Below, in pieces: positions 9,629 through 25,029 of a stretch of 25,029 nt of DNA. The position numbers were made by a program, and so were the translations under genes. Numbering within the stretch: position 1 is the stretch's first letter; every line of letters begins with the position of its first letter. The notes below the pieces were generated by a model. It saw only the letters and a program-made list of their open reading frames with translations, searched no databases and had not been told where the DNA came from. Origin of the DNA: a virus (lineage: Duplodnaviria > Caudoviricetes); the IMG/VR virus record IMGVR_UViG_3300006851_000022, positions 1-25,029 of that record. The stretch is one strand, 5' to 3'.

Positions 9629-10872
9629 AACTGCAAACGCCACAAAACCTGCGCCTGCAGGCCGTGGGCGACGGCACCACCATCGTGGGGTTCTGGGACC
9701 CCGTGCTGGCGGCCCTGGGCTACCAGGTGGAGATTAACGGCACCATCGAAATGACCGTGCCGGAGGCCAGCTTTGTCAAGTTCGGGGCGTCGCTGGATAC
9801 CACCTACAACGTGCGCGTCCGCGCGCTGCCAGATGTTGGCAACGAGCGCAGCGACTGGTCCGCGGTGGCCACGATAAAGACCGGCACGGACGTCATAGAC
9901 CCGCCGGACCCGCCGGACCCGGATGAGCCTAACCCGCTGGACCCGCCGGAACTGTCGCTGGCTCAGCGCGGCCTGGACGCTGCGCGGGCCACGTGGACAG
10001 TGGTGCCGTTAGCAACCGGGTACGAGGTGCAGCTGGACGGCGGCGCAATTCAATCAGAATCGACAGTAGCCAAAACCTTCACCGGGCTGGCAAACGGCCA
10101 GACAATAGCTGTACGGGTGCGCGCCGTCAACGCAGCGTCGGGGGTGAAGTCTGACTGGTCAGATACCAAAACTTTAACCATAGAGGGGTTGTCGCCGCCG
10201 GAGAACCTGGAGGCGATGGGCGCCAGCGAGAACGTCATTCACGTGCGGTTCGACCCCGTGCCGGCAGCTGAAGGTTATGACGTGGGGTATGACCAGCACG
10301 GTGAGGGCGCCGACTACCTTGTGGACGCGCCGGCAACCGAGGTGAATGTTTCTGGACTGCTGCGAGCCACCAGCTACACGTTCTGGGTTCGTTCACGGGC
10401 GGGCGATGCCGTCAGCGACTGGTCGGAGCCGGTGTCAGCATCAACGCTGCGGTCCGGCCCGTTGCTGGTGAGCGCAGAACCGAACAGGGTGAGTAGCTTC
10501 CCGGGCGACCACCACATAACCGCCAGGGCGCTGAACGCCGAATTTAACAATATCCTGGTACTGCTCGCAGGGGGGAGCGCTGATTTGACCCAAGGCTCCA
10601 GGGCGCCAGCGCCCAGCCCGGCCCCACCGGTGCCGGCGCCGATGGAGCCGCCAATACGCGTGACCCCCTACGACCCTGGGTTCCAGCCGTCGCCGCCGGA
10701 GATACCGGGGTTCCCCGACGACCCGCCTGTGGACCCACCGGAACCACCCGACCCGCCGCCCGACCCGGGCCGCCCACCGGAAGAGCCTCCGAAAAGGCCG
10801 CCAGAAAAGCCCCCCAGGGACCCCAGGCCCCCGCTGCCGGACCCAGTAGACCCGCCGGTCAAGCCGCTGTAA
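9625..10872 (+). CDS. Fibronectin type III repeat virion protein with Pro-rich C-terminus
   Basis: Three FN3-like units (PQNL..WDPV..GYQV..YNVRVRA..SDWS; WTVV..GYEV..VRVRAVN..SDWS; PENL..FDPV..GYDV..YTFWVRS..SDWS), then a ~90 aa Pro-rich tail. Confidence 0.8.
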   Translation: MKLQTPQNLRLQAVGDGTTIVGFWDPVLAALGYQVEINGTIEMTVPEASFVKFGASLDTTYNVRVRALPDVGNERSDWSAVATIKTGTDVIDPPDPPDPDEPNPLDPPELSLAQRGLDAARATWTVVPLATGYEVQLDGGAIQSESTVAKTFTGLANGQTIAVRVRAVNAASGVKSDWSDTKTLTIEGLSPPENLEAMGASENVIHVRFDPVPAAEGYDVGYDQHGEGADYLVDAPATEVNVSGLLRATSYTFWVRSRAGDAVSDWSEPVSASTLRSGPLLVSAEPNRVSSFPGDHHITARALNAEFNNILVLLAGGSADLTQGSRAPAPSPAPPVPAPMEPPIRVTPYDPGFQPSPPEIPGFPDDPPVDPPEPPDPPPDPGRPPEEPPKRPPEKPPRDPRPPLPDPVDPPVKPL

Positions 10873-11122
10873 CAGCGTCCCAAATAATCTTGGCGAGCCC
10901 CAGCACCACCAGGCCGACGATGGCCAGAAGTGCGTGGGCCGTGCTGCGCTCGGTAGCCCGGCGCAGCTTGCGGGAATATATCAGGTCTGACCGCAGTTCG
11001 TTCAGGTCTTTCTGGTCGTGTATATCCACACCCAAGGTGCGGAATAGGCTGGTTACAGTTTCTTCGGCAGACAGGCGCGCCAATTCTTGCGCGTCATCGC
11101 GCGTCAGGGGTTCTTGAGCCAT
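10859..11122 (-). CDS. Small membrane protein with C-terminal TM helix (lysis-region accessory)
   Basis: 87 aa from ATG 11122 (TGATG overlap). Soluble N-terminus, then ALLAIVGLVVLGLAKIIW. Confidence 0.65.
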   Translation of the reverse strand: MAQEPLTRDDAQELARLSAEETVTSLFRTLGVDIHDQKDLNELRSDLIYSRKLRRATERSTAHALLAIVGLVVLGLAKIIWDAVTAA

Positions 11123-11580
11123 CACTCAACCAGCAGGTCAAACCAGATGGTGCCCGATTGCTCAAGGCCGCGGCGCAGGATGATGGAGCGGTCCACCTTG
11201 CCGTCGGCGCCCCTGCAGTTCGGCGGGTACGGCCCCGGCAGCACCGCGCAGGTCAAGGGTTTGATGTTCAGCGCGTAGTCCAGCAGCAGGGTGCGGTCCA
11301 TAAGCGTGGGGTGTACGTCGCCGGCAGGCACCAGGCGACTGCCCAGGGCGGGGAACCCGATGGCGTCCACAGTCCAGACGTCACACAACGCACCGTTGTC
11401 GCACACATCGGAGACCACCCAGCGGGTAGTGTGGCCATCGTGGAAAAACCACTGCAGGACAAACGCGTCCTCGGTGACCTGCTGGACCGCCACCCCGTGG
11501 CCGGGGTGTTCTGCTTCGTAGAATTGCTGGGCCGCCAAAGGGGCCGCAAGAAACAACGCAAAGATAAACAACGTTCTCAT
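11122..11580 (-). CDS. Putative secreted/periplasmic protein (152 aa)
   Basis: GGAG RBS. Sec-type signal MRTLFIFALFLAAPLAA, beta-rich mature part, four Cys. Confidence 0.7.
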   Translation of the reverse strand: MRTLFIFALFLAAPLAAQQFYEAEHPGHGVAVQQVTEDAFVLQWFFHDGHTTRWVVSDVCDNGALCDVWTVDAIGFPALGSRLVPAGDVHPTLMDRTLLLDYALNIKPLTCAVLPGPYPPNCRGADGKVDRSIILRRGLEQSGTIWFDLLVE

Positions 11581-11583
11581 GAG

Positions 11584-11856
11584 TTACTCCTGGTAGGGGG
11601 CGCCAACACAAAACCTGTCCCGCAGCTCGTTGTGGACAAAGATAGCACGGGCGACGTCCGGGCAGCAATCAACCAGGGCGTCAATCTCGGAATCGGCCAG
11701 GATGATGTACCGGGTCCAGGCGCACTCACCGACGACGGAGACGCTTGGCTTGTGCGCGCAAGCGGTCAGCAAGCTCATGGTCAGCAAGCTCATCGGCAGC
11801 CATATGCTCATCAAGGGCCGCCTGCTTGAGCCTGTCTTGTTCTTTACGTGCTTCAT
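11584..11856 (-). CDS. Outer-membrane spanin (Rz1-like lipoprotein)
   Basis: ATG 11856 with GGAGGA 6 nt upstream. Lipobox LLTA-C, Cys-rich mature part with typical C..W..I..HNE..C pattern. Overlaps the i-spanin 3' half in another frame. Confidence 0.75.
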   Translation of the reverse strand: MKHVKNKTGSSRRPLMSIWLPMSLLTMSLLTACAHKPSVSVVGECAWTRYIILADSEIDALVDCCPDVARAIFVHNELRDRFCVGAPYQE

Positions 11857-11980
11857 GGTCAATCCTCCCACGTTCACGGTGGGCGCCCTGGCGCTCGCCA
11901 CGGCGCAAAGTGTGTAGATATCCCAGCACCAGCGCCAGAACGCTGGCCAGGGCCGCCACAATTCCTGCTACGACACTCAT
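11726..11980 (-). CDS. Inner-membrane spanin (Rz-like)
   Basis: N-terminal TM helix then a charged helical domain. Follows the holin and overlaps the lipoprotein gene. Confidence 0.7.
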   Translation of the reverse strand: MSVVAGIVAALASVLALVLGYLHTLRRGERQGAHRERGRIDHEARKEQDRLKQAALDEHMAADELADHELADRLRAQAKRLRRR

Positions 11981-12207
11981 GGGTCACCGCTTTGGTCTAT
12001 TAGGCGTCCCACGACACCCAAAACCAAGATGGCCATCACCAAGATGGTGCGAACGTCATCGGAAATGTGCTGCAACAAGTCTTTGGGCAGTGTCACCCAT
12101 GCGCCCTGCAGGGCCGCGGCGGCCAACATGGCCTGGACGCTGAACCAACGCCACGAATGCCGCCAGTTCGTTACCAGCTTTCGCTTTCTGTGCTTACTTC
12201 CTTTCAT
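11977..12207 (-). CDS. Holin
   Basis: 76 aa, two hydrophobic segments, LVTNWRHSWRWFSVQA..GRLIDQ pattern. Lies between endolysin and spanins. Confidence 0.75.
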   Translation of the reverse strand: MKGSKHRKRKLVTNWRHSWRWFSVQAMLAAAALQGAWVTLPKDLLQHISDDVRTILVMAILVLGVVGRLIDQSGDP

Positions 12208-12664
12208 GATTCCTCCATAGCGTTAAAAAAGTCATCAGCTTGTGCCGTGCGGCCAGGTCGGAGTTCGGGTAAAAGTATTCGCCGCGCTCGCGGAACCAGG
12301 TGGTGGGTTTTTCACGCAGGTCCACGTGCAGCATGGGGTGGGGATGGCCGTTGTATGTCGTGTCGAAGTAGATACCGACGCCGCTGAAGGTCAGCAGGGC
12401 CGCATGGTAGGCGAGTACCGGGCAGCCCATGGGGAAAATATCACCGGCGTCGGCATGGTTAATGTAGTGGCGGGACGTTTTGGAGCCGTCGGTTCGAACC
12501 CAGGCCCCCGGCACCGGTGAGGGATGGATGGGGTAACCCAGGATGGAGCGCATCTCATCCAGCTTGTGAATCAGGTCCGGCTTGCAGTGCCGGACTGTAT
12601 CAGGGAATTCAGAACGCTGGAACCAGCGAGCGCCGTCAATGGCGAGTAGTGCGGGAGTTGTCAT
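12194..12664 (-). CDS. Endolysin, peptidase M15 family (Zn peptidase)
   Basis: ATG 12664 with GAGG RBS. WF..SEF..LIHKLDEMR, SRH..AGD and GVGIY..LHVDLR fit the M15 His/Asp/His ligands. Confidence 0.8.
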   Translation of the reverse strand: MTTPALLAIDGARWFQRSEFPDTVRHCKPDLIHKLDEMRSILGYPIHPSPVPGAWVRTDGSKTSRHYINHADAGDIFPMGCPVLAYHAALLTFSGVGIYFDTTYNGHPHPMLHVDLREKPTTWFRERGEYFYPNSDLAARHKLMTFLTLWRNHERK

Positions 12665-12770
12665 TATGGTGCCACCTCGCGTTGCCCCAGGGATACTCGA
12701 AAACCTGCGCGCGGGGGCAGCGCGTCTAAGCCGGGTGGCGCGGCTCAACCAAAGCGCGCGCAGTTAGGAG
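12665..12770 (-). ncRNA. Candidate structured RNA / cis-regulatory leader of the lysis cassette
   Basis: 9-bp outer stem (12763-55/12713-05) and 7-bp inner stem (12747-41/12733-27). Also a 10/11-bp pairing of 12724-14 with 12688-78, and a loop GCCACC complementary to GGUGGC at the endolysin RBS. Confidence 0.5.
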
Positions 12771-12772
12771 TT

Positions 12773-12781
12773 TTTATATCA
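12773..12781 (-). promoter_or_regulatory. Possible extended -10 promoter (TG-A-TATAAA)
   Basis: The only AT-rich patch between primase and endolysin. Would start RNA near 12765, at the 5' end of the outer stem. The last -10 base is non-consensus. Confidence 0.3.
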
Positions 12782-12789
12782 TCGGCGGG

Positions 12790-15423
12790 TCACGGTTCGA
12801 AGTCAACCGCTTCGTTGCGGATGACGTAAACCCATACGGGGGCGGTCCCTGGCGCCAACATCAAGCGCGCCTCACGCAGTAAGGCTGGCGCTGATATGAC
12901 GGACGCCGCGGCCTTCCTGCTGATGTTCTTTTCAACCAGATGTTCCTGCAGCCGCTGGCGATGGATGGCAATGGTCCCGTCGCCGAGCGAGCGGGCAATT
13001 GGGTCCCGGACCAGGGTTGAACCCAGCTTGGAATCCTTGTCCCAGTAAACGATGTGTTCGTTGTGCTCGGTCAACCACTCGCTGATGACGTCGCGCGCGG
13101 CTTCGTCAGTGGCAGACAGCGCTAGCGACTGCGCGGCCACTTCGTTGGCAGCGGCGTAAACAGCAGCGACGGGGTCCCAGGGAATCAGCCCCAGGGACTT
13201 GGCGGCGGCGCCGGCCACCAGGGTCACTGCCAGGGTCCACAATGCAAAACGATGGCTATCAGCTATGGCGTACCGAGACAGGATTTGCTTTTCAGCCTGG
13301 TCAACCAGGTCGGGGATAGCTTCTTTGTTGCGCACAGCCCACTCCAAGAACGGGACCGCCGCATGGCCAGCGTTATCAACAACGCACAAGTCATGGACGG
13401 CCACGCCATCCTCACGCGGCATTGGGACGTCCAGGGACAGCTCAATCAGCCTGGCGCGGTGCGCCTCAGTGAACAGGTGCGTAGGGTACTCCAGCAGCGG
13501 CCTGTTGCTGGTGACGTAGGGCACCAGGCGCCAGAACCCGGTGTCATGGTCTGTGCGCGAACTGGTCAATTTGGCGCCGCCTTGGCCGTTGGCGGCCATG
13601 TAGCAGAACCTGCCGGCGCGGTCGGCGCGCCATTGCGTAATTTCGTCAATCAGGTAAGGCACGTCACGGTTGCAGGATAGCTGCCGCTCGGACGCCTTTG
13701 GTGATGAATCGGCGCCCTGGCGCAAGTGTTCCGGGTTTCCGTATATGCTCAAGGCAACGTCAGCCATCAAGGTCTTGCCGGTGCCGGGGGGCCCCACCAG
13801 GGACACAACGGCGCTGCGCCTGTCGGCAGGTGTCAACAACGCGGACCCGAACCCCGCCTGGACTGCGAACTGGTGCAGGCTGTACTGGGGGCTGTCCAGG
13901 CGCGACAGACCGCGCAGCCAGCCGTCCAGGTTGCCTTCGGTCCCGCGCAGGTTCTGTATCTGGTTGGACGTTTGGACCTCGACCTCATCAACACCGTCGG
14001 CGGTGACCATGCGGTCCCCCAGGACAAAGCCGCCTTCGCACCAACCCAGGGTTTCGTGGTACTTACGGACCCCGAGTTCCTTGATTGATTCCAGTGTGTA
14101 TTCGCTGATGTATCTCACAAATCTTTTCCAGTCCACAACGGCGGACGCCAGGTTTTCACGGGCAGCCCAGCGCTTGAGTGCATCTGTAGAATACACTTCC
14201 TCTTGCAGCGCCACAGCGCGCTTGGTGGTGCCGTCGATGGCTACCCATTCAAATAATAATGACGAAGCGTCGGATTCTTGCGCCTGGCGCTTGGCGCGTT
14301 CGCGCACTTCAACAATCCAGAGCGGGACCCGAAGCGTTGGTTTGGGCTTCTCGCCCTCAGTGTGCAGCCATACACCTCCGCTGGATACCAGGAATTGGCC
14401 AACGTGCGCCCGGCGCCAGTCATCCGGGCCCTCGGCGATGGCCGGCGCGGCGGTCACAGACACGGCGATTTGAATCGGGGACGTGACCCGACCGGCGAAC
14501 GGGCAGCCGCGGCAAGTGTCTGGGTTGAGCTCCGCAAAGTGGGCACAGGTGGCAGGCCCTGCGGTGGCCGACGCCTTGTTCTGGGTCTGCTGGGGCGAGT
14601 ATCGCGGGTCACCCTTGGACCACTCGTGAATCCACTTGTCGCGGTCGTCGCAGCGCCATAGAACGGATAGTCCGGCGCGCCACAATGGTTCGGGCATGGC
14701 GTTGCCGCGCGTGTCTCGCATGTGGCGTATCTGTGCGCAGCCTTCGGCAATCTTTTCAGCGTCGCCAGGCGGCATCGGCACGTCCACGGCCCATTCATCG
14801 TCGGGGCGGACGGTTCGCTGCGGCCCCAGGCTGGGCAGTTTATCCAGCAAGTCATCCAGCCGGACCCGGTGTTCTGCCCGGTGCAGCAACCGCACGGGTT
14901 TGCACTTGCCGCCCTTGTGGTTGTGTGTGCCGGGGACCCGCAGTATCCGGGCTGCATCGCCGGACACGCCGGGGTCATCAACGACCTTGGACACAGCCAG
15001 CGCCCGGCGGAACCGGGACGCCGCGTCACGCCAGTCATCAATAGGGACTGGCGCATCAAACAACCAATACACGTGCAGGCCATAGCCAGAGTGTACTACG
15101 TGCGTAGGCGCTGGTAGACGGTGTTGTTTGGACCACGATAATAGGCCGGCCAGGGCCTCTTGTTCGTTTTCGTATTGCTTGCCGGGGCCGCAGTCCAGGT
15201 CGGCCCACAACCCCGGCGCAGTTATCGCGTTGTCCGCCAGCCGGCGGTCACCGTCGAACGATGCCGGCGCGTAGTACACGTCCCACTTGTCGCTGTCCAG
15301 GCGCTGGACCAGGGCTTCGGTTTCATCAACACCCCCCACGGGGTAGTGCTTGACTACCCCGTCACGGATACCTACAATGAACCTCGACCCACGTTTCTGA
15401 CGGCCCCAAACCTCATGAAGCAT
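12790..15423 (-). CDS. Primase-helicase (RepB-like AEP primase, Cys cluster, DUF927-type helicase)
   Basis: ATG 15423 with GGAGG. WADLD, SGYGLHVYW and RILRVPGTHNHK primase motifs; Walker A GPPGTGKT; Walker B YLIDE; VTSN. Confidence 0.85.
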   Translation of the reverse strand: MLHEVWGRQKRGSRFIVGIRDGVVKHYPVGGVDETEALVQRLDSDKWDVYYAPASFDGDRRLADNAITAPGLWADLDCGPGKQYENEQEALAGLLSWSKQHRLPAPTHVVHSGYGLHVYWLFDAPVPIDDWRDAASRFRRALAVSKVVDDPGVSGDAARILRVPGTHNHKGGKCKPVRLLHRAEHRVRLDDLLDKLPSLGPQRTVRPDDEWAVDVPMPPGDAEKIAEGCAQIRHMRDTRGNAMPEPLWRAGLSVLWRCDDRDKWIHEWSKGDPRYSPQQTQNKASATAGPATCAHFAELNPDTCRGCPFAGRVTSPIQIAVSVTAAPAIAEGPDDWRRAHVGQFLVSSGGVWLHTEGEKPKPTLRVPLWIVEVRERAKRQAQESDASSLLFEWVAIDGTTKRAVALQEEVYSTDALKRWAARENLASAVVDWKRFVRYISEYTLESIKELGVRKYHETLGWCEGGFVLGDRMVTADGVDEVEVQTSNQIQNLRGTEGNLDGWLRGLSRLDSPQYSLHQFAVQAGFGSALLTPADRRSAVVSLVGPPGTGKTLMADVALSIYGNPEHLRQGADSSPKASERQLSCNRDVPYLIDEITQWRADRAGRFCYMAANGQGGAKLTSSRTDHDTGFWRLVPYVTSNRPLLEYPTHLFTEAHRARLIELSLDVPMPREDGVAVHDLCVVDNAGHAAVPFLEWAVRNKEAIPDLVDQAEKQILSRYAIADSHRFALWTLAVTLVAGAAAKSLGLIPWDPVAAVYAAANEVAAQSLALSATDEAARDVISEWLTEHNEHIVYWDKDSKLGSTLVRDPIARSLGDGTIAIHRQRLQEHLVEKNISRKAAASVISAPALLREARLMLAPGTAPVWVYVIRNEAVDFEP

Positions 15424-15440
15424 GGTGTTACCTCCGCATT

Positions 15441-15468
15441 GCCCCCGGGAGCCCGGGGGCTTTCTTTT
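15441..15468 (+). terminator. Rho-independent terminator-like hairpin, U-tract on + strand
   Basis: GCCCCCGG-GAGC-CCGGGGGC followed by TTTCTTTT. Confidence 0.5.
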
Positions 15469-15769
15469 ACTCGTCGGGACTGATGGATTCCAGGTAATCT
15501 TGCTGCACGGCACCTCTCGATGCCGACAGCGGCAACGACCCATCAGCCAGCCCTTCCTGCAGCCGCTCAATCCCCCAAAGAAGATTCAGGTAATTGTGGG
15601 CCTGGAGCATGAACTGGTCCTGTTGGATTAGCTGCGCGTACCTGGAGCGTGAAAGCCCCAGCATATTCGCTGCGGTGGTGTTGTTCAAGTTTGACTGCTC
15701 GGCCAGGGTGCGGAAGTGCCCCATGAGCGCGCCACAGTTGGCGCGCACCGCTTCGTCGCTGAACCTCAT
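15467..15769 (-). CDS. Putative HTH DNA-binding protein
   Basis: 100 aa with LNNTTAANMLGLSRSRYAQLI, an XRE/Cro-like helix-turn-helix. ATGA coupling to the upstream gene. Confidence 0.6.
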   Translation of the reverse strand: MRFSDEAVRANCGALMGHFRTLAEQSNLNNTTAANMLGLSRSRYAQLIQQDQFMLQAHNYLNLLWGIERLQEGLADGSLPLSASRGAVQQDYLESISPDE

Positions 15770-22973: not shown

Positions 22974-22979
22974 AGTGGT

Positions 22980-23025
22980 TCCTCTTTGGTTGAGCGGCAC
23001 CGGACCGAAGCCCGGCGCCTGGTGG
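22980..23025 (-). repeat. Intergenic module copy A: stop-CCACCA-hairpin-CTCAACCAAAGAGGA
   Basis: GGCGCCGGGC-TTCG-GTCCGGTGCC hairpin followed by the RBS motif; near-identical to 23538-23587. Confidence 0.9.
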
Positions 23026-23532
23026 TCAAATAACGCCCTGTTCGGCCAGGCTTGTAGGCAAGCCAGAGCCGATTATGAAATGGTCCAGCAGCCGCACGTC
23101 CACGACGTCCAGAATTTCCTTTAACTTTACGGTCATGCGCTCATCAGCCGCGCTGGCGCGACGGGTGCCGGACGGGTGGTTATGGTAAACAATGACCGCG
23201 GCGGCGTTATGCGCCAGGGCCTTCTGGACGATGACGCGCGGATACACGCACGCTTCGTCGATGGTACCGGAGAACAAAACCTCATGCGCCAGCACGTAGT
23301 GCTGAGAGTTCAGGAACAAGGCGCCGAAGTGTTCACGTTCGGAGCCGGCAATCTGCAGGCGCATAAAATCGGTTACCAGCTTCGGGCTGGTGAGCCGGTG
23401 GGTTTTGCCGCACACCTCCAGGCGGCGCGCGTCCAGGCGACGTTCCAGGATGATAAGCGCCTGGGTTATAACTTCGTCGGCAGTCCAGCCGTTATATTCC
23501 GCGGCTGGTTCGGTTTTGATGTGGTTAGTCAT
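23026..23532 (-). CDS. radC: RadC-like JAB/MPN domain protein
   Basis: EREHF..FLN..GTID..VYPR..HNHPSG..S..D..LLDHFIIG, an intact JAMM motif. Short form with no N-terminal HhH domain. ATG 23532. Confidence 0.9.
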   Translation of the reverse strand: MTNHIKTEPAAEYNGWTADEVITQALIILERRLDARRLEVCGKTHRLTSPKLVTDFMRLQIAGSEREHFGALFLNSQHYVLAHEVLFSGTIDEACVYPRVIVQKALAHNAAAVIVYHNHPSGTRRASAADERMTVKLKEILDVVDVRLLDHFIIGSGLPTSLAEQGVI

Positions 23533-23537
23533 GTTAA

Positions 23538-23587
23538 TCCTCTTTGGTTGAGTTAATGGCGCCGGACCAGGGCCCGGCGCCTGGTGG
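23538..23587 (-). repeat. Intergenic module copy B
   Basis: GGCGCCGGGC-CCTG-GTCCGGCGCC hairpin followed by CTCAACCAAAGAGGA. Confidence 0.9.
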
Positions 23588-24016
23588 TTAGACGGCGCCC
23601 AAACGGACGGCCAGGGCCTGCAAATCGTCGTCCGCCAGGTCGTGCAGGGCGTCCAGCCCGCGGGCGAACAGGTCGCCGGCTGATACACCCTTCAGGACAT
23701 GGAGCAGCCGGGCCCGGCGCGGAAGGACGGCCAGGGCCAAGGTGCGAACCCGGCCACCAGGACCGGCGCAGCCCCGCACAAGGCAAAGCCCCATATCCTG
23801 CAGGGCCTGGACCGCGGCGCTTATTGCCGCGTCGAAGGCCGGGCCGTCCGAACGCAGGCCGTCCAGGACCCCCTGGCCGACCCCGGCGAACCGCAGCACG
23901 TCCAGGACGAGCGGCGCGCGAAAGAGTGATTCGTAGATACCGAAGCAGCCGCGGGCCGCTTCGGCCCGGGCAAGTTCGACGCCGGCGGCGGGCAGGTTGT
24001 TGATTATCTGGTTCAT
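23588..24016 (-). CDS. Hypothetical early protein (142 aa), first gene after the promoter
   Basis: AACCAAAGAGGAG RBS; the stop is followed by the repeat module. Confidence 0.7.
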   Translation of the reverse strand: MNQIINNLPAAGVELARAEAARGCFGIYESLFRAPLVLDVLRFAGVGQGVLDGLRSDGPAFDAAISAAVQALQDMGLCLVRGCAGPGGRVRTLALAVLPRRARLLHVLKGVSAGDLFARGLDALHDLADDDLQALAVRLGAV

Positions 24017-24057
24017 TGTGGCTCCTCTTTGGTTTGGTCAATCGCGAATACACCCTA

Positions 24058-24086
24058 ATTATAAACCCGACTGGCGCATAATGCAA
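24058..24086 (-). promoter_or_regulatory. sigma70-type early promoter
   Basis: TTGCAT-17 nt-TATAAT on the - strand, about 40 nt upstream of ATG 24016. Confidence 0.8.
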
Positions 24087-24350: not shown

Positions 24351-24463
24351 CATTTCATGCAGTTACACCAACACCGCCCGGCAACTGTCCAACATGCGCA
24401 TATTTGTAAGTCATTGATAAATTCGCGCAGATTGCCTTCTTGATGCCTCCACGCGTGCAGCAA

Positions 24464-25029
24464 CAACCGGCGCAAGCCTGGACGTTTGGAGCAACCGGCG
24501 CAAGCCAGGACGGTACAACCGGCGCACGGCAAGCCGGTTAACTAACTGTCCAACTATGCTTGCACGTTTGCCCGGCTAACCGTCCAACTATGCTTGCACG
24601 TTTGCCCGGCCCGGCGCGGCGCAGATCGCGCACAGTATGGACACTAACAACCGCCCGGCAGCAGGTCACATACAGCCGCGCAAGTCAGGGCCCTGCAGGC
24701 CGCACAGCTGGCCAGCTTGTAGGCACTAACAACCGGCGCAAGCCAGGACGGCACAGGCAGGCCAGGACAGCCCGGCAGCCCGGCACCCTGGCACCCTGGA
24801 CCGTGGACGGCAGGACGCGCGCGCCAGCTCGTCGAGGTGCCACGTTCAAAATAAGGTGCCACGTTCACAAGAAGGCGTCTTCGTTCACAGGGAGGCGCAG
24901 GGAGCCAGTAGATAGGTAGTCCTTAAAACCACAGGGACCCCGGGGGGTTCAGCCCTCGCCCCGCTCGTCTAGCACCCCATTTCACCAAGTGTCTAATGTC
25001 AGTGCAGTCATGCAGTCATGCAGTCATGC
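24464..25029. repeat. Repeat-rich non-coding region (several direct-repeat families)
   Basis: CAACCGGCGCAAGCCWGGACG at 24464, 24492 and 24730; a 34-bp tandem pair at 24542-24609; AGGTGCCACGTTCA at 24835 and 24854; CAGTCATG x3 at the window end. Confidence 0.85.

What the first reader, a model, noticed from the sequence alone, without database searches (positions are those of the whole stretch)
12743..12754. Lysis-leader RNA is antisense to the motif repeated at the early-gene ribosome-binding sites: candidate RNA-RNA early/lysis switch
Seen: the - strand RNA upstream of the endolysin contains CUUUGGUUGAGC, the exact reverse complement of GCUCAACCAAAG. That motif abuts the SD (AGAGGA) of the clamp-like gene (12/12, near 22984-95), radC (11 nt, near 23542-52) and the first early gene (8 nt, near 24027-34), all on - strand mRNA about 10 kb away. 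In the predicted fold CUUUGGU is an unpaired junction (toehold) and UGAGC is one strand of the hairpin whose loop carries the anti-SD. Inference: either a ~65-nt sRNA (about 12765-12700, closing stem plus UUUU) shuts off early-gene translation, or early mRNA leaders invade the structure like a natural toehold switch and set lysis timing. A chance 12-mer match is unlikely in 25 kb (about 0.003 under a uniform model), and both partners are intergenic, but the match was found post hoc.
Basis: partly seen in the sequence, partly recalled or inferred. Interest (0 to 1): 0.85.

Follow-up and report, generated by a model that had tools for sequence, protein, structure and literature searches.

The report
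Phage RNA mirrors early-gene ribosome sites
Just ahead of this phage's cell-bursting genes lies a short stretch that is the exact mirror image of a signal repeated where ribosomes land on its first three genes, so it is likely made as a small RNA that would turn those early genes down, while a role in timing the bursting is not backed by folding predictions.

Summary
The match is real: 12/12, 11 and 8 nt to the three early ribosome-binding sites, hard to get by chance (0.01-0.02 expected anywhere, far less intergenic). It sits in a predicted 67-73-nt unit: sigma70-like promoter, 9-bp closing stem, U4 tail, directly after the primase and ahead of a lysis cassette that is inverted relative to relatives. 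Best reading (0.5): a trans-acting small RNA that dampens translation of the first early genes. The lysis 'toehold switch' is not supported: target binding changes the cost of opening the endolysin RBS by only 0.2-0.3 kcal/mol. No close relative's DNA and no RNA data could be reached, so this unit itself is untested for conservation or expression. Indirect support is strong: 65 of 95 distant relatives carry a promoter-to-terminator unit at the same place whose sequence matches their own RBSs better than other phages' (0 of 20,000 permutations). The window's RNA is not a detectable member of that family, nor of C4. This scan noted similar anti-RBS phage RNAs on other DNA before (unchecked notes).

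The parts
12778..12806 (-). sigma70-like promoter, -35 TTGACT, 17 nt, -10 GATGAT, overlapping the primase stop; predicted +1 near 12771
   Evidence: 9 of 12 consensus matches; 7 such sites found versus 3.1 in shuffles; start site inferred
12773..12781 (-). alternative extended -10 TGATATAAA (predicted +1 near 12765); same TGATA start as the promoters of the distant family
   Evidence: 32 of 50 family promoters begin TGATA
12766..12771 (-). 5' tail ACUCCU, anti-SD-like; present only if transcription starts near 12771
12755..12763 (-). closing stem, 5' arm
   Evidence: pair probabilities 0.74-1.0 in the terminated RNA
12743..12754 (-). seed CUUUGGUUGAGC, antisense to the early RBS motif
12727..12747 (-). 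inner hairpin (7 bp, loop CGCCACC at 12740-12734, complementary to GGUGGC of the endolysin SD)
   Evidence: pair probability 0.58-0.66
12714..12726 (-). second linker, 10 of 11 complementary to 12688-12678 just upstream of the endolysin SD
   Evidence: -28.6 kcal/mol with the loop; best of 29 RBS regions
12700..12713 (-). closing stem 3' arm (12713-12705) and U4 tail (12703-12700); weak, non-canonical terminator
   Evidence: not called by the terminator scan
12194..12678 (-). SD GAGGUG (12678-12673) and probable endolysin (ATG 12664, 156 aa, M15-peptidase-like)
   Evidence: homologues start at the same Met; only a weak Peptidase_M15_3 hit, E 0.17, in 1 of 6 members; holin next to it
10859..12207 (-). 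rest of the lysis cassette (holin 12207-11977, spanin-like ORFs, two further ORFs), read in the primase direction
   Evidence: holin phrog_1356; spanin-like by eye
12790..15423 (-). primase-helicase (DUF927), last gene of the replication operon
22974..23026 (-). leader of the beta-clamp-like gene: 10-bp hairpin with UUCG loop (23019-22996), motif 22995-22984, SD AGGA 22983-22980
   Evidence: protein resembles DNA_pol3_beta_2 clusters, no Pfam/PHROG hit
23533..23588 (-). leader of radC: same hairpin (23581-23558), motif 23552-23542, SD AGGA
24017..24086 (-). early promoter TTGCAT-17-TATAAT (24086-24058) and leader of the first early gene with AACCAAAG (24034-24027) and SD AGGAG

Best explanation
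The stretch 12771/12765-12700 carries the exact reverse complement of the motif beside the ribosome-binding sites of the first three early genes and is likely transcribed by host RNA polymerase as a 67-73-nt small RNA, whose seed would pair in trans with those sites and lower translation of the early proteins as the RNA builds up. Shown: the complementarity, the repeated leader, promoter-like sites, the position right after the primase. Predicted: the fold, an end at the U4 tail for part of the transcripts (the rest reading on into the lysis cassette, so that the unit doubles as its leader and attenuator), nucleation at CUUU, unzipping of the inner hairpin to 11-12 bp, and possibly opening of the closing stem so that the 5' tail also covers the SD (16, 15 and 13 bp). 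Inferred: a delayed, negative feed-back on early, probably host-takeover, genes.
For: Exact match and its low expectation. Seed ranks the clamp-like and radC RBSs first and second of 29 (-20.0, -17.4 kcal/mol) and is the best of all 14-mers of both strands for the three early RBSs summed. The target motif is largely unpaired in its own mRNA. The three early genes share an RBS class that the later genes (GGAGG-type) lack. With the 12771 start the 5' tail pairs the SD directly next to the motif in all three targets. Control: of 136 other phage loci, 25 had a repeated RBS 11-mer and 1 had an intergenic antisense copy, which is a palindromic DNA site. Distant relatives: 65 of 95 have a terminator 150-520 nt after the primase, 56 of these 65 with CTCC/TCCT just before it (background 1003 of 5000); longest match to own RBSs 9.27 nt versus 7.4 to others' (59 loci, 0 of 20,000 permutations), also with 41, 27 or 13 clusters and GC-binned, while a coding control segment is null (19,125 of 20,000). 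The window RNA matches its own RBSs with 12 nt and those of 58 other loci with at most 10.
Against: No transcript data and no close relative: 0 hits for the RNA or leader patterns in viral contigs, no CTCAACCAAAG in 206 loci, and the nearest reachable relatives (primase 35-61%) have no such unit after the primase. The family model does not hit the element, so the family evidence is analogy. Net pairing energy after opening costs is modest: -8.5 (clamp-like, second of 29, behind a tail gene at -8.8), -5.7 (radC, fifth), and the 8-nt match of the first gene is not its best helix; by the plain seed energy that gene ranks ninth. A coding 14-mer at 15584 scores within 0.1 kcal/mol of the seed, and a longer antisense match to the leader's hairpin part lies inside the SNF2 gene (17473 on), so chance matches of this size occur. 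U4 behind a 41-nt loop is a weak terminator; fold z-score -0.61. The finding was picked post hoc from a very large scan.
Confidence: 0.5

Rival explanations
1. The unit is only the promoter and attenuator of the inverted lysis cassette; the match to the early motif is chance, or a relic of an inverted copy of the leader cassette with no present function.
For: Lysis genes face the primase in relatives but follow it here, so the cassette needs its own control region; the + strand reads as the early motif, 11 inserted bases, then AGGAG, with 16 of 18 identity to the clamp-like leader, as an inverted copy would; chance antisense matches exist in coding DNA; not conserved in reachable relatives.
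Against: The match covers just the part shared by all three leaders, falls in a 125-nt gap, and starts at the predicted open CUUU; 0 of 25 control loci with repeated RBS 11-mers had a non-palindromic intergenic antisense copy; distant relatives keep RBS-matched units at this position.
Confidence: 0.25
2. Reciprocal RNA-RNA switch: early mRNA leaders bind the lysis leader, open the inner hairpin and let its loop and second linker pair over the endolysin SD, so lysis would stay off while early mRNA is abundant and early translation is blocked in the same duplex.
For: Loop plus linker pair the endolysin RBS at -28.6 kcal/mol, best of 29 RBS regions; 53 and 19 of 2000 shuffles do as well; the SD-paired and closing-stem folds lie within about 1 kcal/mol; holding the seed bound lowers SD access from 0.34 to 0.20 in one of the fragments folded.
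Against: Opening cost of the endolysin RBS is 3.6 kcal/mol without the element, 3.7-4.1 with it and 4.0-4.3 with the seed bound, and is lower than for 11 of the 14 other genes measured; the shift in SD access is 0.03 or less in the other fragments shown; 257 of 12,486 genome windows pair the loop and linker as well. The direction proposed as a toehold that frees the SD is not seen.
Confidence: 0.12
3. The motif is a protein-binding site: an asymmetric DNA operator or stoperator (three copies one way, one reversed beside a promoter), or an RNA operator of a translational repressor in the early leaders with a chance reverse copy.
For: Non-palindromic motif in intergenic gaps; in MabJ prophages the promoter-overlapping operator is reversed relative to the stoperators (PMC9934374, passages); Aca2 blocks translation through a leader RNA motif (PMC13551039, passages); the two leaders also share a hairpin.
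Against: Only four copies against 14 in the MabJ example; no repressor family among 29 proteins, though the record is 68% complete; copies shorten from 12 to 8 nt at the end away from the SD and are fused to it, as an RBS class would be; the reversed copy sits inside a predicted fold.
Confidence: 0.08

Closest known systems
C4 antisense RNA of phages P1/P7 (Rfam RF01695)
   Same: About 70-80 nt, 5' and 3' ends closed by a stem, encoded in the leader of a phage operon, pairs with its own phage's mRNA at the ribosome-binding site (PMC5320573 and PMC12197685, passages).
   Different: No match to the model at E up to 10; two stems predicted, not three; no GGW start; targets lie 10-11 kb away in early genes, not in an antirepressor operon; no ant/icd gene seen.
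StxS small RNA of lambdoid phages
   Same: A short RNA made by early termination of the transcript that leads into the lysis genes, acting in trans and on its own downstream transcript (PMC7547250, abstract and start of introduction).
   Different: StxS targets are rpoS and a late gene, and read-through needs Q; here the predicted targets are the phage's early RBSs and no Q-like protein was found among 29.
Uncatalogued anti-RBS unit after the replication operon of distant relatives
   Same: Same position after the DUF927 primase, promoter starting TGATA, single-stranded part matching the phage's own RBSs.
   Different: Those units cover the SD itself (42 of 59 best matches hold an SD tetramer) and end in a short-loop terminator; the window RNA pairs just upstream of the SD, is closed by a long-range stem, and is not hit by the model.
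PAK_P4as15 and other cis-antisense phage RNAs (sar, OOP, aQ)
   Same: RNA control of phage timing; PAK_P4as15 is proposed to delay endolysin translation (PMC12197685, part 2 of 6).
   Different: These are encoded opposite their targets; this one has a short seed for several distant sites.

Membership tests
C4 antisense RNA (RF01695) | Match to the covariance model | tested here: not met
   0 matches at E up to 10; no Rfam match at the element above noise
C4 antisense RNA (RF01695) | Three stem-loops P1-P3 | tested here: not met
   predicted closing stem plus one hairpin
C4 antisense RNA (RF01695) | RNase P processing at a GGW start of the closing stem | tested here: not met
   stem begins CUG; processing itself not testable
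C4 antisense RNA (RF01695) | Unpaired parts pair own phage mRNA at the RBS | tested here: inconclusive
   complementarity present; seed only partly unpaired; binding not measured
C4 antisense RNA (RF01695) | Lies in an antirepressor (icd/ant) operon | tested here: not met
   lies between primase and probable endolysin
StxS-type leader-derived sRNA | Short terminated transcript from the promoter of the lysis operon | tested here: inconclusive
   promoter-like sites and U4 present; terminator not called by the scan; no RNA data
StxS-type leader-derived sRNA | Q-type antiterminator gives read-through | tested here: inconclusive
   none among 29 proteins; record 68% complete
StxS-type leader-derived sRNA | Hfq binding and RNase E processing | not testable with these tools
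   needs experiment; host unknown
Anti-RBS unit of distant relatives (R1) | Position directly after the primase end of the replication operon, with a TGATA-type promoter | tested here: met
Anti-RBS unit of distant relatives (R1) | Matches own RBSs better than other phages' RBSs | tested here: met
   12 nt versus at most 10 in 58 other loci
Anti-RBS unit of distant relatives (R1) | Sequence model match (GTTCTCC body, short-loop terminator) | tested here: not met
   no hit at 12700-12790 at E up to 10, filters off; the model has no base pairs
Stoperator system | Ten or more asymmetric sites plus a repressor | tested here: not met
   4 copies; no repressor family found

The most novel reading that the evidence does not exclude
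One 70-nt phage RNA couples both ends of the lytic programme: its seed and 5' tail shut the early RBSs in trans while its loop and linker lock the endolysin RBS, and it arose anew, from an inverted copy of the early leader when the lysis cassette flipped, at the very position where a widespread, uncatalogued family of phage RNAs tracks each phage's own RBSs.
Probability: 0.14. Interest if true: 0.85.

Novelty: new variant of a known kind. Interest (0 to 1): 0.62.

Why it matters
How phages that use only the host polymerase turn their early genes off is poorly known; the small phage RNAs in the parts of the review that I read (PMC12197685, parts 1-2 of 6 and passages) act on host genes, on antirepressors or opposite their own gene. 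A small RNA that reads an RBS class as an address would be a protein-free early shut-off, testable with two plasmids. The family found on the way (65 of 95 distant relatives, co-varying with their own RBSs, no Rfam match in 17 loci) suggests that this is a common device in a large group of uncultured phages, whatever the window's own unit proves to be.

Tried and rejected
Rfam on the window and on the element: only noise; C4 model: none. Single-protein and pattern scans for close relatives in viral contigs gave none; the SNF2 scan gave only 32-42% relatives; the endolysin scan gave unrelated-looking loci whose upstream DNA showed no such unit by eye (16 of 26 printed). The 15-mer RBS motif scan gave 87 single-copy hits, none with an 11-nt antisense copy. 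Cofolding ranked the clamp-like leader fourth and radC seventeenth of 29, but it must break the closing stem, so I gave it little weight. My first control script missed the window's own case through wrong start calls and was redone. The 184-aa TTG extension of the endolysin over the element was rejected because homologues start at the Met at 12664. No solved structure matched the endolysin alignment. Cultured relatives Rollin and RHph_TM3_14A gave no hit with model R1. The toehold that frees the endolysin SD was rejected. Literature searches returned 0 papers; others returned listings with nothing on this arrangement by title and abstract start. Look-ups of earlier notes by place and sequence were empty.

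Full report
Setting. The window is the 25-kb, 68%-complete record of a phage. Virion genes lie on the + strand to 10872; the - strand carries, from the right end, three early genes (a 142-aa ORF, radC, a beta-clamp-like gene), DNA polymerase A, VRR-NUC-like nuclease, SNF2 helicase and a DUF927 primase-helicase, then a lysis cassette. The endolysin call is probable, not firm: it rests on position next to a holin and one weak M15 hit among 6 homologues. The host is unknown.

Observation. Two of the leaders also share a 10-bp hairpin. Markov models give 0.0014-0.0027 expected copies of the 12-mer on that strand and 0.011-0.023 when any 11-mer of the shared RBS motif is allowed; the hit lies in one of few non-coding gaps. 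Against this: the GC-rich hairpin part of the leader has a longer antisense match inside the SNF2 gene, which outscores the element in local alignment (32 versus 26), as does one same-sense coding match (28).

Anatomy. A TTGACT-17-GATGAT site (12806-12778) and an overlapping extended -10 (12781-12773) point to a start near 12771 or 12765. The RNA up to the U4 at 12703-12700 is predicted to close a 9-bp stem (probability 0.74-1.0) around the seed, a 7-bp hairpin (0.58-0.66) and a second linker. Only CUUU of the seed is reliably open, and the fold is no more stable than shuffles. The seed ranks the clamp-like and radC RBSs first and second of 29 and the first gene's ninth; summed over the three it is the best 14-mer of both strands, 0.1 kcal/mol ahead of a coding window. 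With opening costs the energies are -8.5 and -5.7 kcal/mol, ranks two and five. If the RNA starts at 12771, its tail can pair the SD next to the motif in all three targets, for 16, 15 and 13 bp, but only with the closing stem open; that calculation ignores intramolecular structure.

The lysis arm. Loop and second linker are complementary to the endolysin RBS (-28.6 kcal/mol, best of 29; 53 and 19 of 2000 shuffles; 257 of 12,486 genome windows as good), and this fold competes with the closing stem (output partly cut). Yet the cost of opening SD to AUG is 3.6 kcal/mol without the element, 3.7-4.1 with it and 4.0-4.3 with the seed held bound, lower than for 11 of 14 other genes. Equilibrium folding thus shows neither a lock nor a switch; pseudoknots and folding during transcription were not modelled.

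Near relatives. Proteins 65-84% identical exist but their DNA was not in the collections I could scan. The nearest loci reached (primase 35-61%) have no such unit: lysis-type genes face the primase from the other strand (5 of 10 ORFs tested hit PHROG lysis families; the other five read by eye), and 0 of 12 have a terminator within 1500 nt on the primase strand (that scan would also miss a long-loop stem like the window's). The window's cassette is therefore inverted and the unit is a local feature. No expression data were obtained.

Control and distant relatives. Among 136 other de-duplicated loci of 10 kb or more, 25 had a repeated RBS 11-mer and 1 an intergenic antisense copy, a palindrome (crude gene caller; these loci were fetched for other reasons). 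At 10 nt, 5 of 38 did: that palindrome, two that look like RBSs of opposite-strand genes at locus edges, and two (L057, L087) lying just after the replication operon. Following these, 65 of 95 distant loci (primase about 24-29%) have a terminator 150-520 nt past the primase, 56 of the 65 with CTCC/TCCT before it, against 20% background; 30 lack it or were missed. A promoter pattern was found in 50 of the 65. For the 58 loci that also had three or more SD-bearing genes, plus the window (48 of 107 dropped), the longest match of the unit to its own RBSs averaged 9.27 nt against 7.4 for others', 0 of 20,000 permutations; without the window, and with 41, 27 or 13 clusters and GC bins, the result held, and a coding control segment was null. 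Host-specific 16S tails could add to this signal and were not controlled. Rfam had nothing on the unit in 17 loci and only sub-threshold hits on L057. A sequence-only model of 38 units finds further members but not the window's element. So the window's RNA works like this family by position and by matching its own RBSs (12 nt, against at most 10 in 58 other loci), but fails the membership test.

Mechanism. Most likely (0.5) a small RNA from the promoter at the primase stop pairs in trans with the early RBS class and lowers early translation with a delay; read-through would supply lysis mRNA. Rivals: lysis promoter/attenuator with a chance or relic match (0.25), reciprocal early/lysis switch (0.12), protein-binding site (0.08).

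Comparison. Closest in working are C4 of P1/P7 (PMC5320573, passages; PMC12197685, parts 1-2 of 6 and passages) and StxS (PMC7547250, abstract and start of introduction); it belongs to neither family. P4 CI RNA is recalled as a further analogue and was not checked. Searches found no paper with the terms of this arrangement, and listings 45, 46, 48, 49 and 66 showed none by title; the library lacks most subscription papers, and the motif lists in the supplements of PMC5737381 (main-text passages only) were not read. Earlier notes of this scan describe similar anti-RBS phage RNAs on other DNA; they are unchecked and were not counted as evidence.

Verdict. Real and probably functional complementarity; small-RNA arm plausible and backed by analogy, lysis-switch arm unsupported. 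New variant of a known kind; interest 0.62.

Noticed in passing
window 15350-15470 (+): Promoter TTGACT-17-TACAAT, about 85 nt, then a terminator, on the strand opposite the primase start: a candidate cis-antisense RNA over the primase AUG and SD. A promoter-like site (8-10 of 12) on that strand was found in 11 of 13 near relatives, most with a terminator by eye; conserved codons may force part of it. Its GUUACCUCC also matches the GGAGGUAAC RBS of three other genes.
   Followed up: partly
L057 12888-12980, L087 13012-13132, L142 12942-13041 and some 60 more loci: Uncatalogued promoter-to-terminator unit after the replication operon, with a pyrimidine-rich part that matches each phage's own RBSs.
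   Followed up: partly
window 10859-12790: The whole lysis cassette is inverted relative to relatives, where it ends the late operon and faces the primase; no inverted repeat at its borders was among the 25 longest listed.
   Followed up: partly
window 17326-17298 and 17245-17235 (-): Twin of the early promoter (GTGTTGCA-like -35, 17 nt, TATAAT) inside the SNF2 gene, followed about 50 nt on by an 11-nt copy of the early motif that is not at an RBS.
   Followed up: no
window 12000-11987 (-): The RBS region of the spanin-like gene pairs the seed third best of 29 (-15.8 kcal/mol).
   Followed up: no
L140 2876-2942, L149 3926-3992, L156 5261-5327, L170 110-175: int-alpA RNA (RF02996) above the gathering score in four related phage loci.
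   Followed up: no
L016 near 1190, 3760 and 5770: Repeated palindromic site TTCTACA-N-TGTAGAA before several genes, probably a DNA operator.
   Followed up: no
window 24460-25029: Non-coding end with 34-nt and 28-nt tandem repeats and a GCATGACT array at the very end.
   Followed up: no
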